A stretch of 54,943 nucleotides of DNA from a virus (taxonomy: Duplodnaviria; Caudoviricetes), in IMG/VR virus record IMGVR_UViG_3300037755_000870, positions 1 to 54,943 of that record; one strand, written 5' to 3'. The notes under the pieces are model-generated. The model was not told the DNA's origin. It saw nothing but the letters and a program-made list of their open reading frames with translations, and made no database searches. The translations under genes and the position numbers were made by a program. This document shows, piece after piece, positions 19,155 to 25,013 of this stretch (the first letter of the stretch is position 1; each line of letters opens with the position of its first letter).

Positions 19155-19781
19155 TCATCGGTAGAGACCGCCGGGGTTACGCTCCGTGAGCATGCCGAGG
19201 ACGTCGATCGGCACCAGGACGGAGAGCGACGGCGTGTCGTCGATCGCCGCGACGATCTCAGCCGCGGGCCAGCCGATCACCGGCCCGTTGACCAGGCAGG
19301 ACCAGCCGCGCTTGTCCAGAGGACCGAGGAGGTCGAGGAACGCCTCTGCGTCGTCGGAGAGCGGCTCTGTCGGCGTCAGGTCGATCACGTCGCCGACAGG
19401 CTCCGCCGGTCGGCCGTACGTCCAGATCGTGCCAGAGCCGCCGTGCGGACAGTGCCGGTCGTCGTGGGCGGATCCGTACCAAATCCCGACGACCTCGTCG
19501 GCGTAGGACCAGAGCGTCGGGTCGACGATCCGGGCGTTGACTGCGTAGGGATCGCTGTCGACGACGACCCAGGAGTGCTGTCCGCCGACGCCGGCGCAGG
19601 CGCCACGCCCGACTCGTGCCGCAGGTCCGAGGAGACCGGAGCGGACGAGCGCGAGCGAGGCGCCGTGGCAGTTGTGCGCCCAGTCGTCGAGTCCGCCGAG
19701 AGCGTCGACGAGCGCCGCGTCGAGTTCGGTCGGATCGAGTTCCGAGACGTCGGAGAGATCAGGGAACAGGTTCGTGGTCAC
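19155..19781 (-). CDS. Hypothetical protein, 208 aa
   Basis: GTGA coupling; NCH...HSW...DPT suggests a Cys-His-Asp (transglutaminase-like) fold. Confidence 0.65.
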   Translation of the reverse strand: MTTNLFPDLSDVSELDPTELDAALVDALGGLDDWAHNCHGASLALVRSGLLGPAARVGRGACAGVGGQHSWVVVDSDPYAVNARIVDPTLWSYADEVVGIWYGSAHDDRHCPHGGSGTIWTYGRPAEPVGDVIDLTPTEPLSDDAEAFLDLLGPLDKRGWSCLVNGPVIGWPAAEIVAAIDDTPSLSVLVPIDVLGMLTERNPGGLYR

Positions 19782-20977
19782 GACCGGCTCCCGGCTGCGG
19801 CGAGGTCGAGCGCGGCGATCGCCTGCGCCTCGATCTCCATCGCGTCGTCGGCGTCCTCGACGGTCTGAGCGTACGACGTGACCGCGTTCAGGACGCCGCC
19901 GGCCGTCATCTGCCCGCCGCGGACGAAGTGGTCGAGGATCCCGTCGATCCGGTCCTGACCGAACCGGAGCCGCTTCCCGATCGTCTCGATCGCCTTCGCC
20001 GGCTGGTCGACGACCGCCGTCGCCTGCGCCTCGATGATCTGGACTGCCCGCTTGACGTACTCGGCGTCGAGGAACTGCGCGACCGCGTCCCGTGCCTGCG
20101 AGGCGACCAGGTCGAGATTCTTCCTCTGCGTCTCGTCGCTCCACTGGATGACGCCGTCGCCGAGCTTGCCGCCGAGATGGACGTTCCGCATCGCGTCGCG
20201 GGTGATCGTCATGCCGTTGTCGCAGACTTCGGCGATGATCCGCGGCGTGATCGAGAACGCGCCGTCGCCGACCTCGGAGTTGGCGATCACGAACCCGGCG
20301 AACACGACGGGGTTCTCGTCGCCGGAGTTGCCGGAGAACGGCGACCGGTAGCCGGCGAGGAGCGTCGGCGCGAGCGCCTGGACCGCGGGCGCCTTGATCC
20401 GGACGTACATGCGTCGTTCGGTCAGGTCGCAGCCGTCGATCTCGACCTCGACGCCGGCCTCGCGGACGCCTTCGAGCGCCGCCGTGAGGACGTCGAGGTT
20501 GTCGAAGATCCGATACTGATTCGAGAGGAACGCGCGCGCGACGCCGTCGCCTCCGTCGTCGCCTCGGAACGTCCGGAGCAGGAACGACCGCGGGTCCGGC
20601 TCGCGCAGGACGGTCGTGATCGGACCGGCGGCGTCGCGGCCGGCGACCTTGCGCTTGCCGTGGAGCCAGCCGTTGACGTTCGAGTCGTACAGGTCCGGCG
20701 CGGCCTCGCGGAGCCGGCGCAGGTAGGCGAGCGGAACGCCGAGCTTCGAAGCGATCCCCTCGTCGCAGACCCGCGTCGGGCGATAGGTGCCGTTCGGATC
20801 CGTGACGCCGTCGTCCTCGATGACCTGGTCGGCGCCGGCGATCACGAGGTTGGCGCCGTAGGAGCGGACCTGTTCGGCGGGGACGATCATGTCGATCTTG
20901 CGGCCGTGCTGGTCCTGGAGGAGCGAGGCGAGATCCTCGATCGTCGCGTTCCTCGTCGTCGTGGTGAGCGTGCTCAT
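19778..20977 (-). CDS. DUF932-like protein, 399 aa
   Basis: RAFLSNQY, NSEVGDGA, VCDNGM, HLG motifs; CCCATCCCAAGGAG RBS. Confidence 0.75.
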   Translation of the reverse strand: MSTLTTTTRNATIEDLASLLQDQHGRKIDMIVPAEQVRSYGANLVIAGADQVIEDDGVTDPNGTYRPTRVCDEGIASKLGVPLAYLRRLREAAPDLYDSNVNGWLHGKRKVAGRDAAGPITTVLREPDPRSFLLRTFRGDDGGDGVARAFLSNQYRIFDNLDVLTAALEGVREAGVEVEIDGCDLTERRMYVRIKAPAVQALAPTLLAGYRSPFSGNSGDENPVVFAGFVIANSEVGDGAFSITPRIIAEVCDNGMTITRDAMRNVHLGGKLGDGVIQWSDETQRKNLDLVASQARDAVAQFLDAEYVKRAVQIIEAQATAVVDQPAKAIETIGKRLRFGQDRIDGILDHFVRGGQMTAGGVLNAVTSYAQTVEDADDAMEIEAQAIAALDLAAAGSRS

Positions 20978-21098: not shown

Positions 21099-21536
21099 TC
21101 ACCAGGTCTCGCAGGAGCCGGCGTCGGTCGCGTGGTCGATGCAGCAGCCGTCGGTCGACCGCTGGCAGGACTCGTCCTCGGCGCGGTCCGAGGCGATCGA
21201 GCGGAGCGCCGGCGTCGACGGCCGCGAGTCCGGAGCGCCGACGATCGGCGAGCGGATCTCGGCGGCGATCAGGAAGCAGCCTCGCTCTGGCTCCTCGACG
21301 TGCCGGTACGCCTCGACCTCGTAGTCGTAGAACGCCGGCCGGCCGCAGTCGTTGCACTCCTCGACGTCGTCCTCGACGATCTCCGGCGCCGTCCTGGCCT
21401 TGCTCTCGTAGCGAGCGGCCTGGGTCAGATCGCCGGCTCGGCGAGCGATCTCCGCCTTGACGCGGTACCCCTCGGCGGTTACCGGCCGGGGGTTGAGGGG
21501 GCCGTACGCCGACTTCGTCGTCGTGATCGTGCTCAT
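21099..21536 (-). CDS. Hypothetical Cys-containing protein
   Basis: ATG after CCCAAGGAG and motif 21576-21591. Confidence 0.7.
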   Translation of the reverse strand: MSTITTTKSAYGPLNPRPVTAEGYRVKAEIARRAGDLTQAARYESKARTAPEIVEDDVEECNDCGRPAFYDYEVEAYRHVEEPERGCFLIAAEIRSPIVGAPDSRPSTPALRSIASDRAEDESCQRSTDGCCIDHATDAGSCETW

Positions 21537-21575
21537 GGTTGCGCTCCTTGGGAAAGGGGTCTCGGTACGCCGCAA

Positions 21576-21591
21576 CCTTAGCGCGGTTAGG
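21576..21591 (-). promoter_or_regulatory. Motif copy with TAAGGT -10
   Basis: CCTTAGCGCGGTTAGG; supplies the TAA stop of the upstream mom-like gene. Confidence 0.8.
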
Positions 21592-22294
21592 AACCTCGCG
21601 CCGTGTTCGAGCGGTCGGAGGGAGTCGAACCCACACCTCCGGCGTGGGACGCCGGCGTCTCCCCGTCGAGACCTCGACCGCGGGGTACCGGATACGGTAG
21701 CGCCAGAGGAGCGAGCCGGCGGCGCATGGCTCGATCGAGCGGGTACAGGTACCGGTACTTCCCCGGCCGGCGCCGGAACGGGACCGTCGGACCGCCTGGA
21801 TTCTCCGGGAGGTTCTTCCCGTTGAACCCTTTCGCTCGGAGGTCGTACCAAACGCCCTTCTTGTGGCGCCAGCGACCGCCGACGAAATACTCGTCGACGT
21901 CGTCGCTCTGTCCGGTGTAGATCCAGTTTCCGGCCTGGTAGATCCCGCCGTGATGTCCTCGGGTCGGATCGGCGAACGAGACGACGAGGCGAAGCTCCGG
22001 CGACTGCTGGCGGAGGAGCCGGAGTGCGCCGGCGACCGCCTGCGAGACCGGCGCCTCGTGGGAGCGCATGGCGATCCGGGTGAGTTCGCAGATCTCGACG
22101 TGGTCCAGGTCGTAGGCGGAGCCGAGCCACGGCGACGCGCCTCGGGAGAACAGGATCGCTCCGACGAACTCGCCGGCCTCCCATACGCCGACCTTGACGA
22201 GCTTCCCGGTCGGGAGGCAGCCGGAGTAGTGCCAGCGTTCGACCGCGAACCGGGCGGCGTCGTGTCCGCAGAACTCGACGACGAGGTCGGTCAC
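21587..22294 (-). CDS. mom: Mom-like GNAT DNA adenine modification protein, copy 2
   Basis: WHYS, VGAILF, ELTR, VSFADP..GHHGGIYQAGNWIYTG, PGKYRYLYPL motifs; GTG start overlaps stop of copy 1. Confidence 0.8.
   Translation of the reverse strand: MTDLVVEFCGHDAARFAVERWHYSGCLPTGKLVKVGVWEAGEFVGAILFSRGASPWLGSAYDLDHVEICELTRIAMRSHEAPVSQAVAGALRLLRQQSPELRLVVSFADPTRGHHGGIYQAGNWIYTGQSDDVDEYFVGGRWRHKKGVWYDLRAKGFNGKNLPENPGGPTVPFRRRPGKYRYLYPLDRAMRRRLAPLALPYPVPRGRGLDGETPASHAGGVGSTPSDRSNTARGS
21610..21681 (-). tRNA. Atypical tRNA-Gly(CCC)-like gene within the 3' end of mom copy 2
   Basis: GCGGTCG/CGACCGC acceptor stem (7/7 pairs), GTCT/AGAC D-stem, CCGGC/GCCGG anticodon stem with loop GT-CCC-AC, TTCGACT T-loop, discriminator U; no encoded CCA. 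Confidence 0.8.
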
Positions 22295-22923
22295 CGCGGG
22301 TACTCGACTCGGAGTGTCTCGACGCGCCGGCGGACCGGTCGATCGAGCGGGAGGACGTACCGGTGCTTGCCTGGCCGGTCCCGGCGCGGCAGCGTCGCCT
22401 TCTCGTCCGGCGTGAGGCGGCTCGGCGCGTCTCGGCCGGCGCCGTTGAATCCGGTCCCGTAGTCGGAGAGTTGCCGATCGGACCACCAGCGGCCGCGGTA
22501 GTAGACCTCCGAGGAGCCGCCCGACTGGCCCGTGTAGATCCAGTTCATCGCCTGGTACAGCACGCCGGTGTGGCCGGCCGCGGGATCGGCGAACGAGATC
22601 AGGAGCCGGAGTCCGGGGTTCGCTCGGCGGAGGAGACGGACCGCGGCGGCGACGATCGTCGAGGTCGGATGCTCGTGCTCGTCGAGAGCGACGCGCGCAA
22701 GCTCGGCGACCTCGGTCCGGTCGAGGTCGAACCGCGAGTGCAGGTTCGCCGCCAGACCAGGGGTGAACACGACGGCGCCGACGAACCGTCCGGCCTCCCA
22801 TGCCCCGAACCGGACCATCTTCGCGTGCCCGTCCATCGGGAGCTTCCCGGTGTAGTGCCAGCGGCGAGCGGCGTACGTCGCTGCTGCCTGCTGGTCGCAG
22901 TAGTCGACCAGGAGGTCGGTCAA
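22291..22923 (-). CDS. mom: Mom-like GNAT DNA adenine modification protein, copy 1
   Basis: WHYT, VGAVVF, ELAR, ISFADPAAGHTGVLYQAMNWIYTG, PGKHRYVLPL; TTG start overlaps the ParB-like stop. Confidence 0.8.
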   Translation of the reverse strand: MTDLLVDYCDQQAAATYAARRWHYTGKLPMDGHAKMVRFGAWEAGRFVGAVVFTPGLAANLHSRFDLDRTEVAELARVALDEHEHPTSTIVAAAVRLLRRANPGLRLLISFADPAAGHTGVLYQAMNWIYTGQSGGSSEVYYRGRWWSDRQLSDYGTGFNGAGRDAPSRLTPDEKATLPRRDRPGKHRYVLPLDRPVRRRVETLRVEYPR

Positions 22924-23477
22924 CGCGGGACCCACTGGTGGCCGCAGGACGGACACTGGACGGGGTTCCGTTCGTCGAGGCGAGGCTGCGTCTCCGGCGG
23001 TACCGGATCGAAGTCCGGGACCTGGAGTTCGGCGAGGATCGTGTCGAGGTCGTCGTTGTCGTACCCGACGGCGCCGTCCAGGCGGTCGTTCTTCCGGAGG
23101 TCGTCGAGCATCGCGCCGAGTTCGTCCATCCGCCAGCCGCCGCGTTCGCCGAGCCGGTTCACTGCGATGAGCGCGGCCTTCGCCTCGTCGTCGTCCTCGG
23201 ATGCCCAGCCGCAGACGACCGGGACCCGCCAGGTTCCGTCCTCGTCGACGACGACGCCGTCCGGGGGTTCCTCGCCGGCCTCTCGTGCCGTCCGGTACTG
23301 CTCGGTTCGGCCGTGGCCGGAGATCAGTCGGCCGGTCCGGTCGTCGCGGGTGATGATCTCGATCGTGCCGAAGCGGCGGAGCGAGGCGGCGATCCCGGCC
23401 TCGTCGTGGTCCTTCGGGTTCTGCTCTGCTCCGACGATCTCGTCGAGAGGCAGGTACTCGATATGGCGCTCGGTCAT
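22920..23477 (-). CDS. ParB-N-like domain protein with C-terminal zinc ribbon
   Basis: NPKDH...SLRRFG...LISGHGR...CPSCGHQW; leaderless TACGCT-N6-ATG. Confidence 0.8.
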   Translation of the reverse strand: MTERHIEYLPLDEIVGAEQNPKDHDEAGIAASLRRFGTIEIITRDDRTGRLISGHGRTEQYRTAREAGEEPPDGVVVDEDGTWRVPVVCGWASEDDDEAKAALIAVNRLGERGGWRMDELGAMLDDLRKNDRLDGAVGYDNDDLDTILAELQVPDFDPVPPETQPRLDERNPVQCPSCGHQWVPR

Positions 23478-23530
23478 GGCCGGAGCGTAGTGCGCTCAGG
23501 CTCTGTCAACAGGTGGGGAGAACCTGGGGA

Positions 23531-23749
23531 TCATCGGACCTCGAACTCGCCGGCGTGGTGGCGAGATCCGTGGGCGAACGCGGCGTCGAGCGCGGTCCGC
23601 TTGTTCGCTGTCGAGTGCCAGCCGCGGCCGTCGAGCCAGCCGAGAGCGAGGTCGCGTTTCGTCGGGATCGTGACGTTCCCGCACGCCGAGCATTCGACGC
23701 GGTGGGTGGCGCGCCGACCCGCGAGCGTCCGGACTCGGACCTCGATCAC
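23531..23749 (-). CDS. Hypothetical protein
   Basis: Coupled ORF with CxxC. Confidence 0.5.
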   Translation of the reverse strand: MIEVRVRTLAGRRATHRVECSACGNVTIPTKRDLALGWLDGRGWHSTANKRTALDAAFAHGSRHHAGEFEVR

Positions 23750-24156
23750 CAGGAGCGGCGGGAGGCGAACGGCCGGCCGGAGAGATGTCGGTCGGCGCCG
23801 CGCTCCTGATTATCTGGATCTCGGTACGACCGCCGGCCGGAGTGCAGGACCCGTTCGTCGCCGCACTTCTCGCAGCGCCTGGTCACGAGGTCGGTCTCGT
23901 CGAGCGTCGGGTGCGGCGAGACGTCGACGATCTCGGAGCGCCAGTGCGCGCAGCCGACCGAGCGGAGGACGATGTCGCAGGTCTCGCAACGGTCCTCGAT
24001 CGAGAACGCCGACGGGGTCGCGGGATCGCCGACGTCGATCTGTCCGGCGAGATCCTCGGCACAGGTCCGGCAGCGTGAGTAGCCGAGCCGGTCGACGTAG
24101 GCGACGACCTCCAGGTCGTGGAGAGCGGACGTCGCGACGACCTCGCGGAACGTCAC
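23746..24156 (-). CDS. Cys-rich hypothetical protein
   Basis: Coupled ORF with three CxxC pairs. Confidence 0.55.
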   Translation of the reverse strand: MTFREVVATSALHDLEVVAYVDRLGYSRCRTCAEDLAGQIDVGDPATPSAFSIEDRCETCDIVLRSVGCAHWRSEIVDVSPHPTLDETDLVTRRCEKCGDERVLHSGRRSYRDPDNQERGADRHLSGRPFASRRSW

Positions 24157-24615: not shown

Positions 24616-24631
24616 CCTTAGCGCGGTTAGG
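24616..24631 (-). promoter_or_regulatory. Motif copy with TAAGGT -10
   Basis: CCTTAGCGCGGTTAGG. Confidence 0.8.
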
Positions 24632-25013
24632 TACGGCGCGGTAGTAGGGACCGCCAGACCGTGACCGGCCGAGCGTGGCACTCCGGTCTCGTCGACGGGA
24701 CCGTCTGGTGCGTGTTCTCGACGATCCCCTCGGCGGCTGCCTGGCGCATGACGGCGCCGAGCGCCCGTGGTTCTCTCGTCGAGGCGAGCGACCGCCAGAC
24801 GTCGTCGGTCGTGAACTCCGGGTGCGTCTCGGCGAGCCGGCGGACGACCGCTCGCGCGTCGGCGAGCCATTCGTCGTCAGCGTTCCCCTCGACCTGCTCG
24901 ATCGCCTCCTCTGCGGCCGCGAGCGCCTCGGACCGGTCTCGGTCCGCACAGACCGGACACTCCTCGTACATCGCAACGAGGCGGTCGTGATCGTGCCGCC
25001 AGTCCTCAGCCAT
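24627..25013 (-). CDS. Hypothetical protein (possible winged helix)
   Basis: FTTDDVW...RALGAVM...VWRSL. Confidence 0.7.
   Translation of the reverse strand: MAEDWRHDHDRLVAMYEECPVCADRDRSEALAAAEEAIEQVEGNADDEWLADARAVVRRLAETHPEFTTDDVWRSLASTREPRALGAVMRQAAAEGIVENTHQTVPSTRPECHARPVTVWRSLLPRRT

What the first reader, a model, noticed from the sequence alone, without database searches (positions are those of the whole stretch)
21587..23500. DNA hypermodification operon: ParB-like gene, two Mom paralogs and an embedded tRNA-Gly
Seen: a leaderless promoter is followed by three translationally coupled genes (TTGA and GTGA overlaps): a ParB-N-like protein and two Mom-like GNAT paralogs. A tRNA-Gly cloverleaf occupies the last codons of the second paralog. 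Known: phage Mu Mom makes N6-carbamoylmethyladenine, whose side chain is glycine-like; I recall a recent report that Mom uses glycyl-tRNA(Gly) as donor, which should be verified. Inference: the phage encodes both the enzyme(s) and a dedicated aminoacyl carrier RNA, forming a self-contained anti-restriction system. It is the only tRNA I found, so codon supplementation is a weak explanation.
Basis: partly seen in the sequence, partly recalled or inferred. Interest (0 to 1): 0.92.

Follow-up and report, generated by a model that had tools for sequence, protein, structure and literature searches.

The report
Mom genes with private glycine tRNA
This phage carries a ParB-like gene, two copies of the DNA-disguising enzyme Mom and, fused to the end of the second copy, an odd glycine tRNA that travels with Mom genes in phages of many bacterial groups, so it is probably the enzyme's own glycine carrier rather than a tRNA for making protein.

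Summary
The minus strand holds a ParB-like gene (22920-23477), two Mom genes (Pfam PF25680; 22291-22923 and 21587-22294) joined by TTGA and GTGA overlaps, and the genome's only tRNA, tRNA-Gly(CCC) at 21610-21681, inside the last 31 codons of the second Mom frame.

Mu Mom is known to take glycine from Gly-tRNAGly (PMC13219725). New here: a glycine tRNA or a reduced look-alike starts a few bases after the Mom domain, on the same strand, in 80 of 80 nearest viral loci and 32 of 44 evaluable bacterial-genome loci. In reverse, 79 of 81 hits of a 19-base RNA motif lie at the end of an intact Mom gene.

The RNAs keep the GlyRS determinants (G1:C72, C2:G71, U73, C35, C36). They lose marks that translation needs: U8, U33, the UUC T-loop and often the whole D arm. 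Stems covary.

A fold model also supports binding of the ParB-like tail to Mom (0.72; best control 0.01).

Best reading (0.68): a dedicated, host-charged glycyl carrier for Mom. This is untested at the bench, and a decoding role for this fairly canonical copy is not excluded.

Not confirmed: 'leaderless promoter' and 'self-contained'.

My paper searches found no report of this linkage. The scan has noted it before on other DNA.

The parts
22920..23477 (-). ParB-like gene (185 aa): ParB/Srx-type N-terminal domain with a GHGR box, a conserved C-terminal segment and a CPxC knuckle
   Evidence: phrog_620 E 3e-26. The protein itself has no Pfam match, but 27 of 30 aligned homologues match ParB_N PF02195. 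A homologue lies directly upstream of Mom on the same strand in 66 of 80 viral loci.
22968..23021 (-). Codons 153-170 of the ParB-like gene: predicted Mom-binding segment
   Evidence: Interface residues 153-156, 158-161 and 163-170 in the complex model. They include F156 (nearly invariant) and L167 and D168 (invariant) of alignment A4.
22291..22923 (-). Mom paralogue 1 (210 aa, TTG start in a TTGA overlap with the ParB-like stop)
   Evidence: PF25680 E 2.8e-34; phrog_1384 E 1.4e-38. It keeps all 41 invariant columns of A1. It sits on a long branch, 1.17 against 0.49 for Mom2.
21587..22294 (-). Mom paralogue 2 (235 aa, GTG start in a GTGA overlap). The Mom domain ends at nt 21689; the last 33 codons are a tail, and the tRNA gene begins in codon 205
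   Evidence: PF25680 E 4.6e-42, residues 4-202; the genome search match at 21689-22285; PDB 8bv8 Mom E 1.1e-18 with profile A1.
21767..21889 (-). Mom2 residues 136-176, the counterpart of Mu Mom's HTH-like insertion (probable DNA-contacting part); the segment where the two paralogues differ most
   Evidence: Mapping. Identity between the paralogues is 18% here, against 53% (residues 1-135) and 58% (177-202). The role of the insertion in Mu comes from PMC13219725 section 13.
21610..21681 (-). tRNA-Gly(CCC), 72 nt to the discriminator U73. It has G1:C72, C2:G71, G3:C70, U73, C35 and C36. It also has A8, C14 and G21 in place of U8, A14 and A21, a U50-U64 mismatch in the T stem, and no encoded CCA (CGA follows).
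   Evidence: ARAGORN; Rfam 44.3 bits with the alignment; own model R1 78.6 bits; the MFE fold is a cloverleaf, but z is only -0.89.
23484..23489 (-). TACGCT, a possible -10 hexamer 6 nt upstream of the ParB-like ATG (candidate only)
   Evidence: Read from the sequence. The consensus scan reports no promoter. No Shine-Dalgarno-like run precedes the ATG.

Best explanation
The cassette is a tRNA-dependent DNA-adenine hypermodification module of the Mom type that brings its own glycine carrier.

Shown by homology: two Mom-family GNAT enzymes.

Inferred steps:
1. The operon is transcribed as one RNA.
2. The tRNA at the 3' end of mom2 is cut out by host RNase P and 3' processing, and CCA is added by the host.
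3. Host GlyRS charges it through G1:C72, C2:G71, U73, C35 and C36.
4. Mom takes the glycyl group from it and puts it on N6 of adenine in phage double-stranded DNA. There it rearranges to carbamoylmethyl-adenine, as in Mu, and blocks restriction.

Because the carrier need not decode, its relatives have lost U8, U33, the UUC T-loop and often the whole D arm. This would keep it out of the EF-Tu/ribosome pool, like the non-proteogenic tRNAGly of staphylococci.

The ParB-like protein is a partner. Its conserved C-terminal segment is predicted to bind Mom, and its ParB/Srx domain probably brings the enzyme to DNA.

The two paralogues differ most in the DNA-contacting insertion, so they probably modify different sequence contexts.
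For: Enzymes.
- Both ORFs are Mom family. Profile A1 matches PDB 8bv8 at E 1.1e-18.
- The counterparts of Mu H58/Y59, R111, S124, D149 and Y159 are present in both paralogues.
- Mu Mom uses Gly-tRNAGly of any isoacceptor and needs the tRNAGly body, not only glycine (PMC13219725 sections 9 and 10).

Linkage, Mom to RNA.
- ARAGORN found tRNA-Gly in 17 of the 80 nearest viral loci, always on the mom strand at its 3' end. The only other tRNAs in those 80 loci are two in L063, about 3 kb downstream of mom.
- Model R1 found the element in 49 of 80 loci.
- A stem search found it in 79 of 80, and the CM found the 80th.
- It usually starts 2-4 nt after the Mom domain.
- In bacterial genomes (retrieval patterns lie inside the Mom domain) it is present in 32 of 44 evaluable loci from many phyla.

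Linkage, RNA to Mom.
- Of 81 hits of a 19-base motif, 76 have Mom upstream by tblastn and 3 more by Pfam (E 6e-54).
- One follows a truncated Mom remnant and one is a chance match.

It is an RNA, not a conserved protein tail.
- Cloverleaf class: 99.4% of cells paired, 14 of 21 pairs compensatory, 0 of 500 shuffles as high.
- D-armless class: 96.8% paired, 12 of 17 pairs compensatory, 0 of 500 shuffles.

What is kept and what is lost, in 69 distinct elements.
- C35C36 in 69 of 69, while N34 is U 42, A 21, C 3, G 3.
- G1:C72, C2:G71 and U73 in all.
- U33 in only 39, U8 in 3, a UUC T-loop in 19 and UGC in 25.
- 24 have no D arm.
- The GlyRS determinants are as given in PMC10464925. The UGC T-loop and weak EF-Tu binding mark the staphylococcal non-proteogenic tRNAGly (PMC7826273).

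Phylogeny. All loci with the RNA fall in one clade of the Mom tree (SH-aLRT 99, 92 rows). The 16 cultured representatives without it lie outside.

ParB-like partner. It lies upstream in 66 of 80 loci. The complex model scores 0.72 (median of three runs) against a best control of 0.01. That mark was reached by 58 of 80 solved complexes and 2 of 110 mismatched pairs; these counts hold only roughly because my own alignments were used. The runs agree in at least 95% of contacts and the partner's pLDDT is at least 83. I know of no solved ParB-Mom complex (recalled, not searched).
Against: - No experiment or read data shows that this RNA is made, processed, charged or used by Mom.
- The window's own copy is the most canonical kind: a UUC T-loop, GG in the D loop, U33 and a full cloverleaf. 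GGG, its codon, makes up 22% of the phage's Gly codons in a crude set of 47 genes. A decoding role is therefore open.
- Linkage is not universal. Only 3 of 20 representative cultured phages with Mom have it. Mu-like D108 and phiEf11 (which has ParB and Mom) have none. It is absent in 12 of 44 genome loci, 9 of them Pseudonocardiales chromosomes. Mom can clearly work with host tRNA.
- In Microbacterium phage Blett the tRNA-Gly lies on the opposite strand, so co-transcription is not required.
- Mu's essential R151 has no conserved counterpart in this clade.
- The viral sample of 80 was ranked by a score that includes the tRNA-coded tail, so it leans towards embedded cases.
- G1, C2 and U73 were search criteria for the 31 loci that only the stem search found.
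Confidence: 0.68

Rival explanations
1. It is an ordinary phage tRNA that supplements decoding of GGG during infection. Its place next to mom is inherited gene order without a functional link, at least in this phage.
For: The window's tRNA passes ARAGORN and Rfam and has U33, a UUC T-loop and GG in the D loop. GGG is the second most used Gly codon of the phage, at 22%. Phage Blett's annotators list its neighbour simply as tRNA-Gly(ccc).
Against: A decoding tRNA has no reason to sit within a few bases of the Mom domain in 80 of 80 related loci across many host phyla. It also has no reason to be glycine-specific every time. Position 34 drifts freely, including 21 of 69 with ACC (recalled: bacteria do not use that anticodon for Gly). 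U8, U33 and the D arm are lost in relatives. This copy itself has A8, C14 and G21 and a T-stem mismatch.
Confidence: 0.15
2. The tRNA-like element works in cis on the mom transcript and is not a glycine donor. It could be a processing or stability signal (an RNase P site that sets the 3' end), or a decoy that binds Mom and restrains a toxic enzyme.
For: It is fused to the mom reading frame. The frame runs through it in 63 of 80 viral and 21 of 30 genome loci. RNase P cleavage would leave mom mRNA without a stop codon, a possible brake. Mu keeps mom under tight control by Com, as the D108 record's annotation shows.
Against: A processing signal or decoy would not need C35, C36 and U73, which are kept in 69 of 69. 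It would not need an encoded CCA either, present in 43 of 69 overall and 23 of 24 in the D-armless class. Blett has the RNA on the other strand, so action in cis is not general. The excess of open mom frames in the viral sample (64 of 80 against 53 of 160) was not repeated in the unbiased sample (21 of 30 against 35 of 60, p 0.36).
Confidence: 0.12
3. It is the phage half of an integration site in a host tRNA-Gly gene (an attP remnant).
For: Many temperate phages integrate into tRNA genes and carry part of one (general knowledge, not tested here). Some relatives are prophages in bacterial chromosomes.
Against: The element is full-length with compensatory changes. It lies inside an operon next to mom, not next to an integrase. 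It occurs in a complete genome with direct terminal repeats. It is often a D-armless form that no host would use.
Confidence: 0.02

Closest known systems
Bacteriophage Mu Mom with host Gly-tRNAGly (PMC13219725; PDB 8bv8; Pfam PF25680)
   Same: Same enzyme family; the key residues H58/Y59, R111, S124, D149 and Y159 have counterparts; a glycine-specific tRNA is the co-substrate; the presumed product and anti-restriction role are the same.
   Different: Mu and D108 have no tRNA gene and no ParB-like gene beside mom, and use Com for control. Here the enzyme gene is duplicated, coupled to a ParB-like partner and fused to its own tRNA-Gly. Mu's R151 is not conserved. The paper's main text has no occurrence of 'encoded tRNA', 'ParB' or 'paralog'. 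Its supplements could not be read.
Non-proteogenic tRNAGly of Staphylococcus aureus and S. epidermidis, used by FmhB/FemA/FemB (PMC7826273)
   Same: Extra tRNAGly copies are charged by the normal GlyRS but bind EF-Tu and the ribosome poorly, and feed a transferase outside translation. The T-loop reads UGC instead of UUC, as in 25 of 69 Mom-linked RNAs.
   Different: Those are cellular genes for cell-wall synthesis and keep a full cloverleaf. Here the genes are viral, fused to the enzyme gene, the target is DNA, and decay goes as far as loss of the D arm. The window's own copy keeps UUC.
Aminoacylatable tRNA-like structures at the 3' ends of plant virus RNAs (Rfam RF00233 Tymo_tRNA-like and relatives)
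   Same: A viral tRNA mimic at the 3' end of a coding RNA that host synthetases can charge (recalled).
   Different: There is only a weak sub-threshold Rfam match here (19.8 bits against a gathering score of 40). Those are RNA-virus genome ends with pseudoknotted acceptor arms and have no link to a transferase.
Phage ParB-domain/DNA methyltransferase fusions (phrog_498)
   Same: The ParB-like protein matches the N-terminal part of this family (E 8.3e-21, profile positions 31-187 of 633). In both, a ParB/Srx domain goes with a DNA-modifying enzyme.
   Different: Here the ParB-like part is a separate protein that is predicted to hold the modifier through a C-terminal segment, and the modifier is a GNAT, not a methylase.

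Membership tests
Mom family (Pfam PF25680) | Match to the family profile above the curated cut-off over its whole length | tested here: met
   Mom1 119 bits and Mom2 144.4 bits against a cut-off of 27.1; profile positions 2-201 of 202.
Mom family (Pfam PF25680) | Residues needed for Mu Mom activity: H58, Y59, R111, S124, D149, Y159 | tested here: met
   From the profile alignment to 8bv8 (chain index + 9 = Mu number) and A1, the counterparts in Mom2 are H22, Y23, R73, S84, D109 and Y119. All are also present in Mom1.
Mom family (Pfam PF25680) | Mu R151 (essential in Mu) | tested here: not met
   It aligns to T111 of Mom2 (R112 is next to it) and to A111 of Mom1. The column is variable in the clade. 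This may be a clade difference and need not mean loss of function.
Mom family (Pfam PF25680) | HTH-like insertion between the GNAT strands | tested here: met
   A segment homologous to Mu 175-209 is present (Mom2 136-176, with W142 matching Mu W181). No structure was predicted here.
Mom family (Pfam PF25680) | Makes N6-carbamoylmethyl-adenine in dsDNA from Gly-tRNAGly | not testable with these tools
   Needs LC-MS of DNA and an in vitro assay.
Canonical elongator tRNA-Gly | Cloverleaf recognised by tRNA finders, with a Gly anticodon | tested here: met
   ARAGORN tRNA-Gly(ccc); Rfam RF00005 44.3 bits against a gathering score of 29.
Canonical elongator tRNA-Gly | Bacterial GlyRS determinants G1:C72, C2:G71, U73, C35, C36 (PMC10464925) | tested here: met
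   All are present in the window's tRNA. Charging itself was not tested.
Canonical elongator tRNA-Gly | Core invariants U8, A14 and A21 and a fully paired T stem | tested here: not met
   A8, C14 and G21, and a U-U mismatch in the T stem, in the alignment to the Rfam consensus.
Canonical elongator tRNA-Gly | Takes part in translation (EF-Tu binding, decoding) | not testable with these tools
   Relatives lack U33 (30 of 69) and the D arm (24 of 69), which argues against a decoding role for the family, but not for this copy.
ParB N-terminal domain family (Pfam PF02195) | Match to the ParB_N profile | tested here: inconclusive
   The window's protein has no match at E up to 1. It aligns at 26-45% identity with 29 homologues; 27 of the 30 aligned sequences match ParB_N (best E 1.4e-10). 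phrog_620 gives E 3e-26.
ParB N-terminal domain family (Pfam PF02195) | GxxR box of the ParB/Srx fold (name of the box recalled) | tested here: met
   GHGR at residues 54-57, with G54 invariant in A4. A subset of relatives has GNGT, without the arginine.
Non-proteogenic tRNAGly (staphylococcal type) | UGC instead of UUC in the T-loop; weak EF-Tu binding; preferred by a transferase outside translation | tested here: not met
   The window's T-loop is UUCGACU. 25 of 69 relatives have UGC. EF-Tu binding and enzyme preference cannot be tested here. It works like this family; membership is not claimed.

The most novel reading that the evidence does not exclude
The ParB-like protein, Mom and the tRNA-Gly-like RNA form a three-part machine found in phages of many bacterial phyla. 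The RNA is a new class of non-translating glycyl carrier, down to 65-nt forms without a D arm. It is recharged by host GlyRS and used only by Mom. It is cut from mom's own messenger, so enzyme and co-substrate are made together. The ParB-like protein holds Mom by its C-terminal segment and carries it along the phage DNA. Tandem Mom paralogues with different DNA-contacting insertions share the one carrier to cover more sequence motifs.
Probability: 0.35. Interest if true: 0.9.

Novelty: new variant of a known kind. Interest (0 to 1): 0.84.

Why it matters
Mom is so far the only enzyme shown to use charged tRNA to modify DNA, and in Mu it uses host tRNA. If a large clade of Mom enzymes carries its own carrier RNA, three things follow.

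1. Nature has already mapped which parts of tRNAGly matter for GlyRS and for Mom. The acceptor end, U73, C35 and C36 are kept. The D arm, the T-loop, U8 and U33 are dispensable. This gives minimal natural substrates for structural and kinetic work.

2. It would be a second, independent case, after the staphylococcal cell-wall tRNAs, of tRNA copies set apart from translation, this time in viruses and for DNA chemistry.

3. Many phage 'tRNA-Gly' genes, and many unannotated ones, should be read as parts of an anti-restriction system and not as codon-usage helpers. Wyborn and BarretLemon have none annotated at this site.

The predicted ParB-Mom contact also gives a testable role for a widespread class of small phage ParB-like proteins.

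Tried and rejected
Promoter. The consensus scan of 21300-23800 found no promoter or terminator. The leaderless start therefore stays a guess from a TACGCT read by eye.

Thermodynamics. The tRNA folds as a cloverleaf, but no better than shuffles (z -0.89). Energy is therefore no evidence here; covariation is.

Selection for an open frame. In the viral sample the mom frame is open through the RNA in 64 of 80 loci, against 53 of 160 for the other frames (Fisher p 6e-12). This was not repeated in the genome sample, whose retrieval did not use the tail (21 of 30 against 35 of 60, p 0.36). I drop the idea of selection for an open frame. It is probably ranking bias plus G+C content.

Codon usage. It does not exclude decoding (GGG 22%).

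Neighbouring genes. Three upstream genes and the first downstream gene have no family match; the fourth upstream gene (24627-25013) and the second downstream gene (19778-20977, phrog_1362) match only PHROG families of unknown function.

Expression. No RNA holder is listed for this stretch. Six DNA runs of sediment or soil hold all or part of it, and one may be the source. No reads were laid.

Integration-site reading. Rejected; see the rival explanations.

Tree. The careful search did not finish, so the quick tree (SH-aLRT only) is what I cite. Several rows have long branches.

Rows dropped.
- L137 and L146 (partial Mom matches) were left out of the genome count.
- L147 and L148 (matches to the Mom C-terminal end and tail only) were counted as having the element, but left out of the frame test.
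- Three anticodon loops of 6 nt (L039, L045, L057) were read by eye.

Paper searches for a published report of a Mom-linked phage tRNA or ParB gene were. None was found in the listings, nor in the passages read of PMC13219725, its preprint and PMC7824862. Supplements are closed and may hold gene-neighbourhood data.
Full report
WHAT IS THERE

The window is a complete viral genome of 54,943 bp with direct terminal repeats and 69.7% G+C. Its nearest cultured relatives in this region are Microbacterium and Arthrobacter phages. All 37 blastn hits lie at 60-80% identity.

On the minus strand lie three genes.
- A ParB-like gene at 22920-23477.
- Mom1 at 22291-22923.
- Mom2 at 21587-22294.

Both Mom genes match Pfam Mom (PF25680) over the whole profile, at 119 and 144.4 bits against a cut-off of 27.1. 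Both also match phrog_1384. They are 47% identical to each other.

The ParB-like protein matches phrog_620 (E 3e-26) and the N-terminal third of a ParB-methyltransferase family (phrog_498, E 8.3e-21). On its own it misses Pfam ParB_N, although 27 of 30 aligned sequences, the window's own protein among them, reach it.

The TTGA and GTGA overlaps are real. They give N-termini that match those of homologues.

ARAGORN finds one tRNA in the genome, tRNA-Gly(CCC) at 21609-21681 on the minus strand. Rfam agrees at 44.3 bits. The Mom profile ends at Mom2 residue 202 (nt 21689). The tRNA begins 7 nt later, and the frame stays open through it to TAA at 21587-21589. The last 33 residues of 'Mom2' are therefore a tail, most of it simply the tRNA read as codons.

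WHAT IS KNOWN

Silva et al. (Nat Commun 2026, PMC13219725; abstract and sections 9, 10, 13 and 14 read) show the following.
- Mu Mom transfers glycine from Gly-tRNAGly to N6 of adenine in dsDNA. The glycyl group then rearranges to carbamoylmethyl.
- All three E. coli isoacceptors work. Glycine on tRNAAla does not.
- R111, S124 and R151 are essential.
- The HTH-like insertion (175-209) is needed.
- Mom is an obligate dimer.

The main text says nothing about phage-encoded tRNA, ParB or paralogues, and neither does the 2023 preprint. An earlier comparative paper still assumed an acyl-CoA donor (PMC7824862, passages).

THE LINKAGE, MOM TO RNA

An alignment of Mom2 with 25 homologues gave the first hint. 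Many homologues carry a conserved tail after the Mom domain whose residues spell a T arm.

I fetched the 80 best of at least 592 viral relatives.
- ARAGORN found tRNA-Gly in 17 of 80, always on the mom strand at its 3' end. The only other tRNAs in these 80 loci are two in L063, about 3 kb downstream of mom.
- Seventeen tRNAs (16 of these and the window's own) align without gaps. 99.4% of cells pair, 14 of 21 pairs have compensatory changes, and none of 500 shuffles reaches this.
- A covariance model built from them found the element in 49 of 80 loci.
- A plain search for a perfect 7-bp acceptor stem starting GC and followed by T found it in 79 of 80, and the model found the 80th. About four extra hits of that search look spurious, as chance predicts.

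The element usually starts 2-4 nt after the last conserved Mom codon.

A caution applies. The 80 loci were ranked by a tblastn score that includes the tail.

An independent sample of 46 loci in bacterial genome records was retrieved by patterns inside the Mom domain and was not cut by rank.
- The element is present after Mom in 32 loci.
- It is absent in 12. Nine of these are Pseudonocardiales chromosomes. One, L144, has a tRNA-like hit just upstream instead.
- Two loci are not evaluable.

The carriers are labelled Saccharibacteria, Alpha-, Beta- and Gammaproteobacteria, Desulfuromonadales, Myxococcales, Planctomycetota, Calditrichaeota, Fimbriimonadaceae and Spirochaetaceae.

THE LINKAGE, RNA TO MOM

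A 19-base motif of the reduced RNA class hit at least 120 viral stretches, and 80 loci were returned. Some are the same contigs as in the first sample. They hold 81 occurrences.
- 76 have a Mom gene ending at the motif, by tblastn.
- Three more have a Mu-like Mom that my queries missed but Pfam finds (E 6e-54 to 3e-52).
- One follows a Mom remnant of about 15 codons in front of a large ORF.
- One is a chance match.

WHERE IT STOPS

I fetched 20 representatives of the 244 cultured-phage records with a Mom homologue. Three have the RNA.
- Blett: annotated as tRNA-Gly(ccc), but on the opposite strand, 33 nt after mom.
- Wyborn and BarretLemon: the RNA overlaps the end of the mom CDS and is not annotated.

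D108 (Mu-like), phiEf11 (which has ParB and Mom) and 15 others have none.

On a quick maximum-likelihood tree of 108 Mom rows, all 80 viral loci, both window paralogues, the three cultured carriers and phiEf11 form one clade (SH-aLRT 99, 92 rows). The 16 other cultured representatives, none of which has the RNA, lie outside. The three Mu-like carriers were not in that tree.

WHAT KIND OF RNA

The 81 elements (80 loci plus the window) give 69 distinct sequences in three forms.
- 22 cloverleaves of 71-72 nt, the window's among them.
- 23 of 71-75 nt with a bulged A in the T stem.
- 24 of 65-67 nt with the D arm replaced by an 11-14-nt linker.

The last form also covaries: 96.8% of cells pair, 12 of 17 pairs are compensatory, and none of 500 shuffles reaches this.

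Kept in all 69:
- G1:C72, C2:G71 and U73. These were partly search criteria, but the search would have failed had they varied.
- C35 and C36, which were not used in the stem search.

These are the bacterial GlyRS determinants (PMC10464925, abstract and passages).

Not kept:
- Position 34 is U 42, A 21, C 3, G 3.
- U33 is present in 39 of 69.
- Position 8 is A in 63 and U in 3.
- The T-loop triplet is UUC in 19 and UGC in 25.

CCA is encoded in 43 of 69 overall, and in 23 of 24 of the D-armless form.

UGC in the T-loop and weak EF-Tu binding are the marks of the staphylococcal non-proteogenic tRNAGly that feed FmhB (PMC7826273, abstract and passages).

The pattern fits an RNA selected for charging by GlyRS and for an acceptor end that Mom can use, but not for decoding.

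THE WINDOW'S OWN COPY

It is of the most canonical kind. It has U33, UUCGACU in the T-loop and GG in the D loop. It also has A8, C14 and G21 in place of the U8-A14-A21 core, and a U-U mismatch in the T stem. It has no encoded CCA.

The genome has no class II synthetase core domain (PF00587) and no CCA-adding enzyme, so the system leans on the host. GGG makes up 22% of Gly codons in a crude set of 47 genes. A second, decoding role cannot be ruled out for this copy.

THE FRAME THROUGH THE RNA

The mom frame runs through the whole element in 63 of 80 viral and 21 of 30 genome loci. It stops inside the element in 13 and 7, and before it in 4 and 2. An apparent excess of open mom frames in the viral sample did not repeat in the unbiased one. 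I read the overlap as a by-product of an RNA gene that starts where the enzyme ends.

If RNase P cuts at the tRNA's 5' end, the mom2 message would lose its stop codon. What follows from that is open.

THE TWO PARALOGUES

Both keep all 41 invariant columns of A1 and the counterparts of Mu H58/Y59, R111, S124, D149 and Y159. Mu R151 has no fixed counterpart in the clade.

They fall in the same 12-row subclade (SH-aLRT 97). Mom1 sits on a long branch (1.17 against 0.49).

Identity is 53% over residues 1-135, 18% over 136-176 (the counterpart of Mu's HTH-like insertion) and 58% over 177-202. Different DNA-sequence preference is the simplest reading. It is an inference.

Tandem Mom genes occur in 6 of the 80 viral loci. 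In five of them the two copies come from different subclades, so pairs arose repeatedly. The RNA follows the second copy in five loci. In L071 each copy has its own element.

THE ParB-LIKE PARTNER

A homologue lies directly upstream of Mom on the same strand in 66 of 80 loci.

Alignment A4 shows a conserved N-x-R, a GHGR box (GNGT in a subset), ADN(R/K)L, W115, and a C-terminal F156 ... L167-D168 ... C175-P-x-x-C178.

A complex model of the ParB-like protein with Mom2 (residues 1-202) gave these results.
- The median score of three runs is 0.72, against 0.01 for the best of three controls.
- That mark was reached by 58 of 80 solved complexes and 2 of 110 mismatched pairs. These counts hold only roughly, because my own alignments were used.
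- The runs agree in at least 95% of their contacts, and the partner's pLDDT is at least 83.
- The interface is ParB-like residues 153-170, exactly the conserved C-terminal segment. It contacts Mom2 residues 5-16, 31-51, 66-69, 77 and 93-101.

This supports binding but does not show it.

VERDICT

Against what is in print this is a new variant of the Mom system: the enzyme comes with its own glycine carrier RNA and a ParB-like partner.

The scan has noted the same linkage before on other DNA (92 notes in at least 70 genomes, all AI notes). I reached my reading before that look-up, and I tested it here on my own samples.

Noticed in passing
L016-L019, L027, L030-L031, L033, L040-L043, L047, L049, L052-L053, L055, L058, L062-L063, L065-L066, L068-L069, L071-L073, L075-L078 and L081 (coordinates): A 65-67-nt tRNA-Gly-like RNA with no D arm: an 11-14-nt linker, a T stem with a bulged A, a non-canonical T-loop and usually an encoded CCA. 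ARAGORN misses all of them.
   Followed up: yes
L084 2607-2678 (Arthrobacter phage Wyborn) and L085 2571-2642 (BarretLemon): Cultured phages whose GenBank records annotate no tRNA here. A tRNA-Gly(UCC)-like gene nevertheless overlaps the end of the 'acetyltransferase'/Mom CDS (63.7 and 68.9 bits with model R1).
   Followed up: partly
L083 2660-2734 (Microbacterium phage Blett): The tRNA-Gly(ccc) next to mom lies on the opposite strand, 33 nt past the mom stop. Linkage survives without co-transcription.
   Followed up: partly
L176 450-578: A Mom gene cut down to its last ~15 codons, still followed by the RNA element, directly in front of a 503-aa ORF. This looks like a decayed cassette.
   Followed up: partly
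L153, L167 and L169 (e.g. L169 3213-3953): A more Mu-like Mom subfamily (Pfam E 6e-54) that my tblastn queries missed also ends in the D-armless RNA. The linkage therefore reaches beyond the clade sampled first.
   Followed up: partly
L110, L115, L117, L119, L120, L122, L128, L130, L136: Nine Pseudonocardiales chromosomes (Amycolatopsis, Actinokineospora, Umezawaea, Actinosynnema, Crossiella) hold close Mom homologues with no RNA element within the 1.5-kb flanks.
   Followed up: no
L132, L133, L135, L138-L140, L142: A further RNA form from records labelled Planctomycetota, Myxococcales or 'uncultured bacterium'. It is 66 nt, a short hairpin stands where the D arm would be, and the anticodon is ACC.
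   Followed up: no
L123 2065-2137 and 2154-2227: Here the Mom-linked element is followed 17 nt later by a tRNA-Met(CAT) gene.
   Followed up: no
L144 1391-1465: In a Dehalococcoidia genome the tRNA-like hit (ARAGORN gives it an odd two-base anticodon) lies just upstream of the Mom match, not after it.
   Followed up: no
window 23021-22968 (ParB-like residues 153-170): In the model the predicted Mom-binding segment lies on Mom2 residues 5-16. This region aligns with the part of Mu Mom that holds W48, the residue needed for dimer formation. The partner may sit where Mu Mom pairs with itself.
   Followed up: no
window 19778-20977 (minus strand): A 399-aa gene two genes downstream matches phrog_1362 (E 1.3e-98), a family of unknown function.
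   Followed up: no
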